64,000 bases of DNA from Escherichia coli. GTDB taxonomy: Bacteria > Pseudomonadota > Gammaproteobacteria > Enterobacterales > Enterobacteriaceae. The translations under genes and the position numbers were made by a program. Below the pieces are notes generated by a model. The model was not told the origin of the DNA. It saw only the letters and a program-made list of their open reading frames with translations, and did not search any database. The first letter of the stretch is position 1; each line of letters opens with the position of its first letter. The stretch lies in NCBI RefSeq assembly GCF_013315695.1, contig NZ_CP054353.1; one strand, 5' to 3'. Of the stretch, positions 6,135 to 37,140 are shown piece by piece.

Positions 6135-6318
6135 ATTTCTCTGAGATGTTCGCAAGCGGGCCAGTCCCCTGAGCCGATATTTCATACCACAAGAATGTGG
6201 CGCTCCGCGGTTGGTGAGCATGCTCGGTCCGTCCGAGAAGCCTTAAAACTGCGACGACACATTCACCTTGAACCAAGGGTTCAAGGGTTACAGCCTGCGG
6301 CGGCATCTCGGAGATTCC
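6135..6318 (+). ncRNA. ssrS: 6S RNA
   Basis: Sequence atttctctgagatgttcgcaagcgggccagtcccctgagccgatatttcatacc...ggcatctcggagattccc matches recalled 6S RNA; lies between zapA and fau; 3-prime end approximate. Confidence 0.9.
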
Positions 6319-6941: not shown

Positions 6942-6997
6942 GGGCGACACACCTGCATCGCCCTGATTGACATCGTTGATTCTTTAACCTAATTTAG

Positions 6998-7140
6998 TGA
7001 GTAAGGGTAAGGGAGGATGACTCCTCCCCTGAGACTGACTGTTAATAAGCTGGGAAACTTATGAGTAACAGTACAATCAGTATGATGACAAGTCGCATCA
7101 TAACCCTTCTCCTTCAAGCCCTCGCTTCGGTGAGGGCTTT
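6998..7140 (+). ncRNA. sibC: SibC antisense sRNA (antitoxin of ibsC); boundaries approximate
   Basis: Plus-strand region fully antisense to ibsC, ending in hairpin gccctcgcttcggtgagggc plus ttt at 7118-7140; locus between fau and serA. Confidence 0.45.
7042..7101 (-). CDS. ibsC: Type I toxin peptide IbsC (19 aa, hydrophobic)
   Basis: Reverse strand reads ATG ATG CGA CTT GTC ATC ATA CTG ATT GTA CTG TTA CTC ATA AGT TTC CCA GCT TAT TAA = MMRLVIILIVLLLISFPAY. Confidence 0.8.
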   Translation of the reverse strand: MMRLVIILIVLLLISFPAY

Positions 7141-7265
7141 ACCGTTACAGCCCCATGCTGCCCTGCCATCGTAAATCCCCATTAAATAAACACAACGCAT
7201 TGATCTGACTTTGATTTATTTTCTGGAGCAGACTCGCAAAGTAGAATGCGCAATGCGGCAACGGT

Positions 7266-7299
7266 GTGGAGAAGGGATAAAAAAATCGGGCAAGTCAGT
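7266..7299 (-). terminator. Intrinsic terminator of serA
   Basis: Hairpin cgggcaagtcagtgacctgcccg with adjacent A-run on plus strand (U-run on serA transcript) just past serA stop. Confidence 0.5.
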
Positions 7300-7330
7300 G
7301 ACCTGCCCGTTGATTTTCAGAGAAGGGGAT

Positions 7331-9515: not shown

Positions 9516-9641
9516 ATACTCTAAATAATTCGAGTTGCAGGAAGGCGATAAGAGAGTGAATCCCCAGGAGCTTACAGAAGTAAGTGACTGGGGTGAGCGA
9601 ACGCAGACGCAGCACATGCAACTTGAAGTATGACGAGTATA
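9516..9641. repeat. ERIC/IRU intergenic repeat, copy 1 (126 bp)
   Basis: Contains gtgaatccccaggagcttacagaagtaagtgactggggtgagcg; near-identical in inverted orientation to 25169-25293. Confidence 0.75.
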
Positions 9642-21952: not shown

Positions 21953-21961
21953 CAAATCGCT
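21953..21961. repeat. 9-bp target-site duplication (caaatcgct), left flank of IS1 copy 1
   Basis: Identical 9-mer at 22730-22738 immediately after the IS1 right end. Confidence 0.9.
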
Positions 21962-22016
21962 GGTGATGCTGCCAACTTACTGATTTAGTGTATGATGGTG
22001 TTTTTGAGGTGCTCCA

Positions 22017-22292
22017 GTGGCTTCTGTTTCTATCAGCTGTCCCTCCTGTTCAGCTACTGACGGGGTGGTGCGTAACGGCAAAAGCACCGCCGGACATCAG
22101 CGCTATCTCTGCTCTCACTGCCGTAAAACATGGCAACTGCAGTTCACTTACACCGCTTCTCAACCCGGTACGCACCAGAAAATCATTGATATGGCCATGA
22201 ATGGCGTTGGATGCCGGGCAACAGCCCGCATTATGGGCGTTGGCCTCAACACGATTTTACGTCACTTAAAAAACTCAGGCCGCAGTCGGTAA
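22017..22292 (+). CDS. insA: IS1 InsA (91 aa)
   Basis: GTG start; [43 protein letters not shown]... Confidence 0.95.
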
Positions 22293-22714
22293 CCTCGCGC
22301 ATACAGCCGGGCAGTGACGTCATCGTCTGCGCGGAAATGGACGAACAGTGGGGCTATGTCGGGGCTAAATCGCGCCAGCGCTGGCTGTTTTACGCGTATG
22401 ACAGGCTCCGGAAGACGGTTGTTGCGCACGTATTCGGTGAACGCACTATGGCGACGCTGGGGCGTCTTATGAGCCTGCTGTCACCCTTTGACGTGGTGAT
22501 ATGGATGACGGATGGCTGGCCGCTGTATGAATCCCGCCTGAAGGGAAAGCTGCACGTAATCAGCAAGCGATATACGCAGCGAATTGAGCGGCATAACCTG
22601 AATCTGAGGCAGCACCTGGCACGGCTGGGACGGAAGTCGCTGTCGTTCTCAAAATCGGTGGAGCTGCATGACAAAGTCATCGGGCATTATCTGAACATAA
22701 AACACTATCAATAA
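22211..22714 (+). CDS. insB: IS1 InsB reading frame (167 aa; expressed as InsAB fusion by -1 frameshift)
   Basis: Product ...[50 protein letters not shown]... Confidence 0.9.
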
Positions 22715-22729
22715 GTTGGAGTCATTACC

Positions 22730-22738
22730 CAAATCGCT
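22730..22738. repeat. 9-bp target-site duplication (caaatcgct), right flank of IS1 copy 1
   Basis: Matches 21953-21961. Confidence 0.9.
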
Positions 22739-22975
22739 GATAGCGCAAAGTAAGGCAATCATAATGTGGTACTGACGACGAATGCCCTGATTCATCACAA
22801 AAGCATTTTGTGGACCGAGCGGTAGGATCATAGCTGCGCCAAGCGCAAGACCTTGAAAGTAATAAGAAAACACGTTGGATATTCCGAATTAAGTATCTGA
22901 TGCAGAGACTATATCGCGGGATTGTTATTAGCGGAAATTGATAATATTAATTGGCAATCAGAAAAACTAATAAGA

Positions 22976-25168: not shown

Positions 25169-25293
25169 TATACTCGTCATACTTCAAGTTGCATGTACTG
25201 CGTCTGCGTTCGCTCACCCCAGTCACTTACTTATGTAAGCTCATGGGATTCACTCTCTTGTCGCCTTCCTGCAACTCGAATTATTTAGAGTAT
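25169..25293. repeat. ERIC/IRU intergenic repeat, copy 2 (inverted relative to copy 1)
   Basis: cgctcaccccagtcacttacttatgtaagctcatgggattcac core; reverse complement aligns with 9516-9641 with a handful of mismatches. Confidence 0.75.
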
Positions 25294-36243: not shown

Positions 36244-36252
36244 CTCGCTGAT
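36244..36252. repeat. 9-bp target-site duplication (ctcgctgat), left flank of IS1 copy 2
   Basis: Identical 9-mer at 37021-37029. Confidence 0.9.
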
Positions 36253-36307
36253 GGTGATGCTGCCAACTTACTGATTTAGTGTATGATGGTGTTTTTGAGG
36301 TGCTCCA

Positions 36308-36583
36308 GTGGCTTCTGTTTCTATCAGCTGTCCCTCCTGTTCAGCTACTGACGGGGTGGTGCGTAACGGCAAAAGCACCGCCGGACATCAGCGCTATCTC
36401 TGCTCTCACTGCCGTAAAACATGGCAACTGCAGTTCACTTACACCGCTTCTCAACCCGGTACGCACCAGAAAATCATTGATATGGCCATGAATGGCGTTG
36501 GATGCCGGGCAACAGCCCGCATTATGGGCGTTGGCCTCAACACGATTTTACGTCACTTAAAAAACTCAGGCCGCAGTCGGTAA
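36308..36583 (+). CDS. insA: IS1 InsA (91 aa)
   Basis: Translation identical to the 22017-22292 product. Confidence 0.95.
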
Positions 36584-37005
36584 CCTCGCGCATACAGCCG
36601 GGCAGTGACGTCATCGTCTGCGCGGAAATGGACGAACAGTGGGGCTATGTCGGGGCTAAATCGCGCCAGCGCTGGCTGTTTTACGCGTATGACAGGCTCC
36701 GGAAGACGGTTGTTGCGCACGTATTCGGTGAACGCACTATGGCGACGCTGGGGCGTCTTATGAGCCTGCTGTCACCCTTTGACGTGGTGATATGGATGAC
36801 GGATGGCTGGCCGCTGTATGAATCCCGCCTGAAGGGAAAGCTGCACGTAATCAGCAAGCGATATACGCAGCGAATTGAGCGGCATAACCTGAATCTGAGG
36901 CAGCACCTGGCACGGCTGGGACGGAAGTCGCTGTCGTTCTCAAAATCGGTGGAGCTGCATGACAAAGTCATCGGGCATTATCTGAACATAAAACACTATC
37001 AATAA
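36502..37005 (+). CDS. insB: IS1 InsB reading frame (167 aa)
   Basis: Translation identical to the 22211-22714 product. Confidence 0.9.
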
Positions 37006-37020
37006 GTTGGAGTCATTACC

Positions 37021-37029
37021 CTCGCTGAT
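37021..37029. repeat. 9-bp target-site duplication (ctcgctgat), right flank of IS1 copy 2
   Basis: Matches 36244-36252. Confidence 0.9.
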
Positions 37030-37140
37030 ATAGTTTTTATCCAGCAATGATACCATCGAGAAATCGATAGCTTCCTGCCAATCTTTTGCTGAATGTATAA
37101 CTGAGATTGATGATTTTGGAAAATAATCACTAAGCCGCAT

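What the first reader, a model, noticed from the sequence alone, without database searches (positions are those of the whole stretch)
7042..7140. Type I toxin-antitoxin pair ibsC/sibC retained, with a Ser-to-Pro variant near the toxin C-terminus
The 19-aa hydrophobic peptide MMRLVIILIVLLLISFPAY is encoded antisense to an sRNA locus. I remember the K-12 peptide as ending ...ISFSAY, so this would be a variant, but that recollection is uncertain.
Basis: partly seen in the sequence, partly recalled or inferred. Interest (0 to 1): 0.3.

Follow-up and report, generated by a model that had tools for sequence, protein, structure and literature searches.

The report
Common ibsC/sibC toxin-antitoxin allele
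This is the well-known E. coli ibsC/sibC type I toxin-antitoxin pair in one of its common natural forms; the proline that differs from K-12's serine is real, but it is the widespread and probably ancestral state. It lies on the three bases that the antitoxin RNA uses to recognise its own toxin mRNA.

Summary
Window 7042-7101 (- strand) encodes MMRLVIILIVLLLISFPAY, antisense to a full-length SibC sRNA (7003-7143, + strand; Rfam SIB_RNA 136.5 bits), in the K-12 position between fau and serA.

The variant is neither rare nor new. The same peptide is RefSeq WP_071525914.1. The window's codon-17 context occurs in 2,790 of 5,426 complete E. coli genomes, against 2,165 for K-12's. Non-coli Escherichia also carry CCA at this locus, so Pro is probably ancestral and K-12's Ser derived.

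The difference covers all three bases of codon 17 (CCA vs AGC). On the SibC strand these are nucleotides +49 to +51, which is the triplet Han et al. (2010) mutated to retarget recognition domain TRD1 from ibsC to ibsD. E. coli carries at least five alleles at SibC +49 to +52, and the spacer holds 0, 1 or 2 modules. Variation clusters in the RNA's apical loops.

Cognate repression should be intact because the pair is cis-encoded, and residue 17 is one of the two most variable in the family (with residue 4).

Verdict: an ordinary, already-known locus. The side observation about loop-focused allelic diversity is modest. Interest 0.2.

The parts
6967..6995 (+). SibC promoter: -35 TTGACA (6967-6972), 17-nt spacer, -10 TAATTT (6990-6995). 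The start site is 7 nt downstream.
   Evidence: Read directly from the sequence. The RNA 5' end is placed by alignment to MG1655 sibC. The Rfam SIB_RNA model begins at this TTGACA. The generic promoter scan missed it because the -10 matches only 3 of 6 positions.
7003..7143 (+). SibC antitoxin sRNA, 141 nt
   Evidence: Rfam RF00113, 136.5 bits. Gap-free alignment to MG1655 sibC b4446. MFE -55.3 kcal/mol, z=-4.9 against shuffles, with the same predicted structure as K-12 SibC.
7042..7101 (-). ibsC toxin ORF: 19 codons plus stop, MMRLVIILIVLLLISFPAY
   Evidence: Translation. Identical ORFs are annotated as ibsC, WP_071525914.1, in RefSeq genomes.
7048..7070 (+). TRD1 of SibC (+46 to +68), which pairs inside the ibsC ORF
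   Evidence: Coordinates transferred from Han et al. 2010 (PMC2943612). The predicted P5 hairpin has an 8-nt apical loop at +48 to +55, which is window 7050-7057.
7051..7053 (+). The variant triplet: SibC U49-G50-G51, the antisense of ibsC codon 17 CCA (Pro). K-12 has G49-C50-U51 / AGC (Ser).
   Evidence: Alignment and codon table. This is the same triplet that was changed to UGC to retarget TRD1 to ibsD.
7018..7021 (+). P2 hairpin tetraloop of SibC (+16 to +19): UGAC here, UUGC in K-12. This is the second polymorphic loop.
   Evidence: The loop alleles seen in E. coli are GAC, UAC, UGC and UGU at +17 to +19.
7101..7117 (+). TRD2 of SibC (+99 to +115), covering the ibsC start codon and Shine-Dalgarno sequence (GGAG on the - strand at 7112-7109). 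It is identical to K-12.
   Evidence: Han et al. coordinates; C107UCCUUC113 corresponds to window 7109-7115. Sequence identity to K-12.
7116..7143 (+). SibC terminator hairpin (10-bp G+C-rich stem, GCUUCGGU centre) followed by UUUACC
   Evidence: Fold. The RNA end is taken from the MG1655 annotation.

Best explanation
This is the ordinary chromosomal ibsC/sibC type I toxin-antitoxin module of E. coli, present as a single copy between fau and serA. It carries one of at least five natural alleles of the antitoxin's TRD1 recognition loop.

Mechanism, established for K-12 and inferred here from sequence identity: SibC (141 nt) is transcribed from a strong -35 promoter, antisense to the whole ibsC ORF. 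Its P5 apical loop (TRD1) contacts the ibsC coding region around codons 12-19, and its single-stranded J1/7 segment (TRD2) contacts the ribosome-binding site and start codon. Pairing then spreads and the toxin mRNA is degraded or silenced. If IbsC is made, it is a 19-residue inner-membrane peptide that depolarises the cell.

The window differs from K-12 by a 3-base block, SibC +49 to +51 UGG versus GCU, in the TRD1 loop. Both RNAs are read from the same DNA, so cognate complementarity is kept automatically and repression should be unaffected. The Ser17Pro difference in the peptide is a by-product of change in the RNA loop, at one of the two least constrained residues of the toxin. Pro/CCA is most likely the ancestral state in Escherichia, and K-12's Ser/AGC a derived but common allele.
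For: Identity and integrity. RefSeq annotates the same ORF as ibsC, WP_071525914.1.

RNA structure: the predicted SibC structure and energy are unchanged between alleles, and the variant bases sit in the 8-nt P5 loop.

TRD1: Han et al. define TRD1 as +46 to +68. They show that G49CU51 to UGC retargets it to ibsD, and that either TRD alone suffices for repression.

Population counts, using a 41-mer centred on the codon so that a hit needs an exact 28-mer across it:
- UGGG (the window's allele): 2,790 genomes
- GCUG (K-12): 2,165
- UCCG (Gly): 1,843
- CGGG (synonymous Pro): 130
- UGGC (F16L plus Pro): 346

Ancestry: Escherichia sp. E1V33 and E. whittamii carry CCA at the fau-serA module, and Citrobacter sp. 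MGH106 carries GCA.

Tolerance at residue 17: seven different residues and 11 codons occur among 48 distinct Ibs ORFs, with Pro the commonest at 22 of 48. K-12 IbsE has Pro17 and is annotated as a toxic peptide. In Salmonella IbsA, alanine scanning abolished toxicity only at H3 and L11 (bioRxiv 10.1101/2025.05.26.656083).
Against: No expression or toxicity data exist for this allele; everything functional is transferred from K-12. Mok et al. 2010, the IbsC mutagenesis paper, could not be read. A review summarising it says that residues 6-19, including the C-terminus, are needed for toxicity (PMC8309996), so a helix-breaking Pro at 17 could in principle alter potency. Ancestral polarity rests on only two non-coli Escherichia genomes, one of which has a damaged module, and on one Citrobacter. 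The ibsC promoter was not located. The genome collection is heavily biased towards clinical lineages, so the counts are not population frequencies.
Confidence: 0.85

Rival explanations
1. The loop-focused allelic diversity is adaptive. TRD1, and in co-resident copies also TRD2, is diversified by selection so that each Sib RNA stays orthogonal to the other ibs mRNAs in the same cell. On this view the window's UGG allele is a distinct specificity type rather than a neutral variant.
For: Among 10 haplotypes of the locus, 11 of 13 variable SibC sites are unpaired (hypergeometric P=1.7e-4). Six of 15 minimum mutational steps fall in the four bases +49 to +52 (simulation P=2.5e-4). In O157:H7 the two tandem copies differ only at +50, +51 and +52 (TRD1), +113 (TRD2) and +138. 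Strain Z0117EC0005, whose sibC spacer is identical to the window's, carries yet other triplets at yqiK-hldE (codon 17 CAC and CAG, against K-12's GCA and CCG), and its three modules stay 2-4 TRD1 mismatches apart. Family-wide, the two hypervariable codons, 17 and 4, map to the P5 and P6 loops of Sib. Han et al. proposed the same logic for the five K-12 paralogues.
Against: Loops are expected to be the least constrained positions of a structured RNA, and residues 4 and 17 may simply be the least constrained in the peptide, so relaxed constraint alone predicts the same pattern. Adjacent changes may be single multi-nucleotide events, which inflates the clustering statistic. The window and K-12 alleles share an identical TRD2, which alone suffices for repression, so they are not truly orthogonal. 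No phylogeny-aware test was run.
Confidence: 0.35
2. Ser17Pro is a functional change in the toxin. A proline three residues from the C-terminus would alter membrane insertion, target binding or potency, so that strains with Pro and strains with Ser have toxins of different strength.
For: The C-terminal part of IbsC is reported as required for toxicity (review PMC8309996 summarising Mok et al. 2010). Proline is conformationally unusual.
Against: Pro is the commonest residue at this position in the family, 22 of 48 distinct ORFs. It is present in K-12 IbsB and in IbsE, which is annotated as toxic. Q, A, H, S, T and G also occur at this position. In Salmonella IbsA only H3A and L11A abolished activity.
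Confidence: 0.1
3. The module is decaying or silent in this strain; that is, it is a remnant rather than a working toxin-antitoxin pair.
For: The locus is dispensable in nature. O157:H7 strain TR01 has a clean deletion of about 182 bp that removes it. The E. whittamii module has lost the ibs start region.
Against: In the window every element is intact and almost identical to K-12: ORF, Shine-Dalgarno sequence, -35 TTGACA, all predicted helices and the terminator. Across the 141 nt of SibC there are only 5 base differences, all in loops.
Confidence: 0.03

Closest known systems
E. coli K-12 ibsC/sibC (b4665/b4446; Fozo et al. 2008; Han et al. 2010)
   Same: Same locus between fau and serA, with the same 141-nt sRNA architecture and predicted fold. 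TRD2, promoter -35, terminator and 18 of 19 toxin residues are identical.
   Different: SibC +49 to +51 is UGG rather than GCU, giving codon 17 CCA/Pro rather than AGC/Ser. The P2 loop at +17/+18 is GA rather than UG. One promoter-spacer base (-16) is A rather than G.
Tandem two-copy fau-serA modules of B1/E-type E. coli, including O157:H7 (annotated as 'Ibs family toxin' plus ibsC)
   Same: The fau-proximal copy has the same TRD1 triplet, UGG/Pro. The O157 copy 1 differs from the window's SibC at only two positions, +52 and +61.
   Different: Those strains carry a second module on the serA side with UCC/Gly17 and a TRD2 change at +113. About 1,886 genomes show two places for the spacer and 1,843 carry the Gly allele. 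The window has a single module.
SibD/ibsD of K-12
   Same: This is the closest paralogue. The window's TRD1 triplet UGG shares two of three bases with SibD's UGC, which leaves one G-G mismatch and one wobble against K-12 ibsD in TRD1. It therefore resembles a two-thirds version of Han et al.'s engineered SibC1d.
   Different: It sits at a different locus (yqiK-hldE), has a different TRD2, and has Lys3, Val14 and Ala17 in the toxin. The genome most similar to the window, MSB1_4I, has no ibsD at all.
Loop-determined specificity of plasmid antisense RNAs (R1 CopA/CopT, ColE1 RNA I/RNA II incompatibility); named from general knowledge and cited by Han et al. as 'kissing' control
   Same: Recognition starts at apical loops, and a few loop bases set which partner is recognised. 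Natural variation is concentrated there.
   Different: Those systems control replication and define incompatibility groups. Here the pair is chromosomal and toxin-controlling, with two independent recognition domains.

Membership tests
Sib antitoxin sRNA (Rfam RF00113 SIB_RNA) | Covariance-model score at or above the curated gathering threshold, with a full-length match | tested here: met
   136.5 bits against a gathering score of 56, model positions 1-147 of 147, E=3e-29
Sib antitoxin sRNA (Rfam RF00113 SIB_RNA) | Transcribed antisense to, and fully overlapping, an ibs ORF (cis-encoded) | tested here: met
   ORF 7042-7101 (-) lies inside sRNA 7003-7143 (+). The overlap is shown by sequence; transcription is inferred.
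Sib antitoxin sRNA (Rfam RF00113 SIB_RNA) | TRD1 in an apical loop and TRD2 in a single-stranded stretch next to the terminator (Han et al. 2010) | tested here: met
   In the predicted MFE structure, +48 to +55 form an 8-nt loop and +107 to +113 are unpaired, exactly as for K-12 SibC
Sib antitoxin sRNA (Rfam RF00113 SIB_RNA) | The RNA accumulates and represses its cognate ibs mRNA | not testable with these tools
   Needs a northern blot or a co-transformation assay
Ibs type I toxin family | An 18-19-residue hydrophobic peptide beginning MM, with a basic residue at position 3, Leu11, and the C-terminal motif S-[F/L]-x-[A/T]-Y | tested here: met
   MMRLVIILIVLLLISFPAY fits the pattern seen in 48 distinct family ORFs. 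The importance of residues 3 and 11 comes. HMM libraries could not be used because the peptide is shorter than 20 residues.
Ibs type I toxin family | Overexpression arrests growth or depolarises the membrane | not testable with these tools
   Known for K-12 IbsC (PMC8309996) but not tested for the Pro17 form
ibsC/sibC orthologue specifically (as opposed to other Sib paralogues) | Position in the fau (ygfA)-serA spacer, downstream of zapA-ssrS | tested here: met
   Gene order is ygfB-zapA-ssrS-fau-sibC/ibsC-serA-rpiA in the window and in K-12

The most novel reading that the evidence does not exclude
The fau-serA Sib module, and on first evidence the yqiK-hldE modules too, carries a species-wide series of natural 'specificity alleles' in the 4-nt core of the TRD1 kissing loop, with copy number varying from 0 to 2. 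The series would be maintained by selection for orthogonality among co-resident toxin-antitoxin copies. The window's UGG allele is one G-G mismatch away from SibD-type recognition, so it may partly cross-repress K-12-type ibsD. That would make Sib/Ibs a natural experiment in how cis-antisense regulators evolve new specificities.
Probability: 0.3. Interest if true: 0.45.

Novelty: already known. Interest (0 to 1): 0.2.

Why it matters
As submitted, the finding is routine. It is a known toxin-antitoxin pair in a common allelic form that RefSeq already catalogues.

Its modest value is as a pointer. K-12, on which all Sib/Ibs experiments were done, carries a derived TRD1 triplet, and roughly half of sequenced E. 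coli carry the window's triplet instead. Natural variation at this locus is concentrated on exactly the loop bases shown experimentally to set target specificity, while the rest of the 141-nt RNA is nearly invariant.

This offers a ready-made allelic series for testing how many loop bases are needed for discrimination between paralogous antisense RNAs. It also suggests that peptide residue 17 varies because of the RNA on the other strand rather than for the toxin's own sake.

Tried and rejected
- **Papers not held.** The two most relevant primary papers, Fozo et al. 2008 (PMID 18710431 / PMC2597788) and Mok et al. 2010 (PMC3009890), are not in the library. Statements about mapped ends, strain copy numbers and tolerance at residue 17 come from secondary sources.
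- **Promoter and terminator scan.** The generic scan found no promoter. The SibC -10 is a weak match and the ibsC promoter remains unlocated. The only terminator it reported is serA's.
- **Profile-HMM libraries.** These could not be applied because the peptide has 19 residues, below the 20-residue minimum.
- **First guess for the yqiK-hldE region.** In the near-identical genome the first stretch fetched was a kps/aerobactin/sat island. A second and third fetch were needed.
- **sibA/sibB in a window-like genome.** Not retrieved, because the coordinates were too uncertain.
- **Cross-tabulation of TRD1 alleles across all Sib loci per genome.** Not possible, because the search tool returns counts and at most 60 rows.
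- **Sequencing-error explanation for the 3-base block.** Rejected, since the block recurs in thousands of independent assemblies.
- **Gene conversion from a K-12 paralogue as the source of K-12's GCU.** No support: no paralogue or outgroup module carries CGCUG.
- **Mutual exclusion between the UGG sibC allele and sibD-like copies.** Not supported. Most single-copy UGG genomes show a second, sibD-like match ('places' column), although the window's own lineage lacks ibsD.

Full report
**1. What is in the window**

Window 7042-7101 on the minus strand translates to MMRLVIILIVLLLISFPAY followed by a stop. The plus strand across the same DNA matches the Rfam Sib family over the full model length: RF00113, 136.5 bits against a gathering score of 56, coordinates 6967-7117. 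It is one of only two Rfam matches in the whole 64-kb window; the other is 6S RNA at 6135-6318.

Gene order is ygfB, zapA, ssrS, fau, sibC/ibsC, serA, rpiA, as in K-12. Gap-free alignment to the MG1655 annotation places SibC at 7003-7143. A perfect -35 TTGACA lies at 6967-6972 and a TAATTT -10 at 6990-6995. The Rfam model therefore includes the promoter. On the minus strand, a GGAG Shine-Dalgarno sequence (7112-7109) precedes the ATG at 7101 by 7 nt.

**2. The variant**

MG1655 and DH1 encode MMRLVIILIVLLLISFSAY, and the same sequence is printed in PMC12199084.

Within the 141 nt of SibC the window differs from K-12 at only five positions. Three are this triplet (+49 to +51, UGG against GCU). 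The other two lie in the P2 tetraloop (+17/+18, GA against UG).

Both alleles give the same predicted structure and energy, -55.3 kcal/mol with z about -5. In that structure +48 to +55 form the 8-nt apical loop of hairpin P5, and +16 to +19 form the P2 loop.

**3. Why that triplet matters**

Han et al. 2010 (PMC2943612) mapped two independent target-recognition domains in SibC. TRD1 spans +46 to +68 (the P5 loop) and pairs inside the ORF. TRD2 spans +99 to +115 and pairs with the translation-initiation region.

They changed exactly G49CU51 to UGC, which is SibD's triplet. That change let TRD1 recognise ibsD. Changing either TRD alone still allowed repression of ibsC, but changing both abolished it.

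The 'Ser-to-Pro variant' is therefore, at the RNA level, a natural substitution of the experimentally defined TRD1 discriminator. The pair is cis-encoded, so cognate complementarity is preserved by construction. TRD2 is identical to K-12's, so the window and K-12 alleles are not expected to be fully orthogonal. That last point is an inference.

**4. How common it is**

I used 41-mers centred on the codon, so that any megablast hit needs an exact 28-mer across it. The collection was 5,426 complete E. coli genomes.

| SibC +49 to +52 | Residue 17 | Genomes |
|---|---|---|
| UGGG (window) | Pro, CCA | 2,790 |
| GCUG (K-12) | Ser, AGC | 2,165 |
| UCCG | Gly, GGA | 1,843 |
| CGGG (e.g. UTI89, ATCC 11775) | Pro, CCG (synonymous) | 130 |
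| UGGC | F16L plus Pro | 346 |

A word-11 search confirmed the identity classes and left only about 15 genomes unexplained.

The spacer also varies in copy number:
- It is deleted in O157:H7 strain TR01.
- It holds a single module in the window and in K-12.
- It holds two tandem modules in about 1,886 genomes (7,311 places in 5,425 records). In these, a Pro-type copy lies next to fau and the Gly-type copy lies next to serA.

From these counts, single-copy genomes with the window's triplet number roughly 1,200-1,300. The window peptide is RefSeq WP_071525914.1. Variation in Ibs copy number between strains is already published, including seven Ibs genes in O157 Sakai (PMC2887945).

**5. Polarity**

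I scanned one genome per GTDB species with a degenerate Sib pattern. This returned 62 loci, of which seven are chance hits in unrelated taxa. The modules flanked by fau and/or serA are:
- Escherichia sp. E1V33: MMRLVIILIVLLLISLPAY, codon 17 CCA.
- E. whittamii: CCA, but the start region is deleted.
- Citrobacter sp. MGH106: MMKSVIILIVLLLVSFAAY, codon 17 GCA.
- A two-copy E. coli-like genome.

Across 48 distinct 19-codon Ibs ORFs, residue 17 is Pro in 22 and Ser in 2. Pro/CCA is thus the likely ancestral state in Escherichia, and K-12's AGC is derived. This is an inference from few outgroups.

**6. Pattern of variation**

Among 10 haplotypes of the locus, the variable SibC positions are +12, +17, +18, +19, +30, +49, +50, +51, +52, +61, +86, +113 and +138. 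Eleven of these 13 are unpaired in the predicted structure (P=1.7e-4). Six of 15 minimum steps fall in +49 to +52 (P=2.5e-4 by simulation).

The two O157 tandem copies differ only at +50, +51, +52, +113 and +138.

Family-wide, the hypervariable codons are 17 (7 residues, 11 codons) and 4 (11 residues, 19 codons). These lie opposite the P5 and P6 loops.

In strain Z0117EC0005, whose sibC spacer is 100% identical to the window's, the yqiK-hldE modules have codon 17 CAC and CAG, against GCA and CCG in K-12. The three modules examined in that genome remain 2-4 TRD1 mismatches apart.

The window itself is collinear with strain MSB1_4I at 99.93% identity over 40 kb. That genome has only one module at hldE-yqiK and no ibsD.

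The window's SibC has one mismatch plus one wobble against K-12 ibsD within TRD1. K-12 SibC has two mismatches plus two wobbles.

**7. Interpretation**

The best-supported reading (confidence 0.85) is an intact, ordinary ibsC/sibC module carrying a common, probably ancestral TRD1 allele. The amino-acid difference is a passenger of RNA-loop variation at a tolerant residue. Support for that tolerance:
- K-12 IbsE has Pro17 and is annotated as toxic.
- In Salmonella IbsA only H3A and L11A abolish activity.

Whether the loop-focused diversity reflects selection for orthogonality (0.35) or merely the weakest joint RNA and peptide constraint cannot be decided without a phylogeny-aware test and cross-repression assays. 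A protein-level effect of Pro17 is unlikely (0.1), and decay of the module very unlikely (0.03).

**8. Novelty and score**

The feature is already known and annotated. Han et al. already noted that the TRDs sit in regions that vary between the five K-12 paralogues, and strain-to-strain differences in copy number are published.

I found nothing on the population-level allelic series at a single locus, or on the point that K-12's triplet is the derived one. My literature searches were only crude keyword searches of an open-access library. These observations are a small extension of existing work. Interest 0.2.

Noticed in passing
Window 6942-7330, compared with L011:2468-2674, L012:2410-3189 and L019:1111-1891: The fau-serA spacer is polymorphic in copy number across E. 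coli. It holds no Sib/Ibs module in O157:H7 strain TR01 (a deletion of about 182 bp), one in the window and K-12, and two tandem units of about 392 bp in roughly 1,886 of 5,426 genomes. In the two-copy genomes RefSeq names only the serA-side copy ibsC.
   Followed up: yes
L021:12342-12759 (MSB1_4I) and L086:2515-3308 (Z0117EC0005), compared with L004 (K-12): The yqiK-hldE spacer also varies. There is one module (ibsE-type) in the genome nearly identical to the window, and two in K-12 and Z0117EC0005. The codon-17 triplets differ between those two strains: GCA/CCG against CAC/CAG. TRD1 allelic diversity is therefore not confined to sibC.
   Followed up: partly
L005:897-902 (K-12 sibC +46 to +51): K-12's derived triplet creates the perfect palindrome AGCGCT, with GCU directly following AGC. 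No one- or two-step intermediates between UGG and GCU were seen among 5,426 genomes. This is compatible with a single template-switch or multi-nucleotide event rather than three separate substitutions.
   Followed up: no
Window 21961-22742 and 36252-37030: Two IS1 copies are present. In the collinear genome MSB1_4I the corresponding insertions interrupt argO and cmtB, which are annotated there as partial pseudogenes.
   Followed up: partly
Window 9516-9641 and 25169-25293: A 126-nt sequence is present twice in opposite orientation at about 96% identity. The size is typical of an intergenic repeat such as ERIC/IRU, but it was not identified.
   Followed up: no
Window 6967-7002: The Rfam SIB_RNA model starts at the -35 TTGACA, 36 nt upstream of the annotated SibC 5' end. 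Rfam coordinates therefore overstate the 5' extent of the RNA and stop short of its terminator.
   Followed up: yes
L058:4764-4830 (Escherichia whittamii): The fau-serA module keeps the TRD1 region (UGGC, codon 17 CCA) but lacks the stretch holding the ibs start codons and the P6 hairpin. It is probably a decayed toxin gene.
   Followed up: no
L065 (Citrobacter sp. MGH106), fau-serA spacer: The Citrobacter module at the sibC position has a TRD1 stretch (UGUUAAUAAGCUGCGAAACUUACGAG) identical to that of K-12 SibD, which sits at a different locus. This hints that the sibC and sibD lineages share recent ancestry or have exchanged sequence.
   Followed up: no
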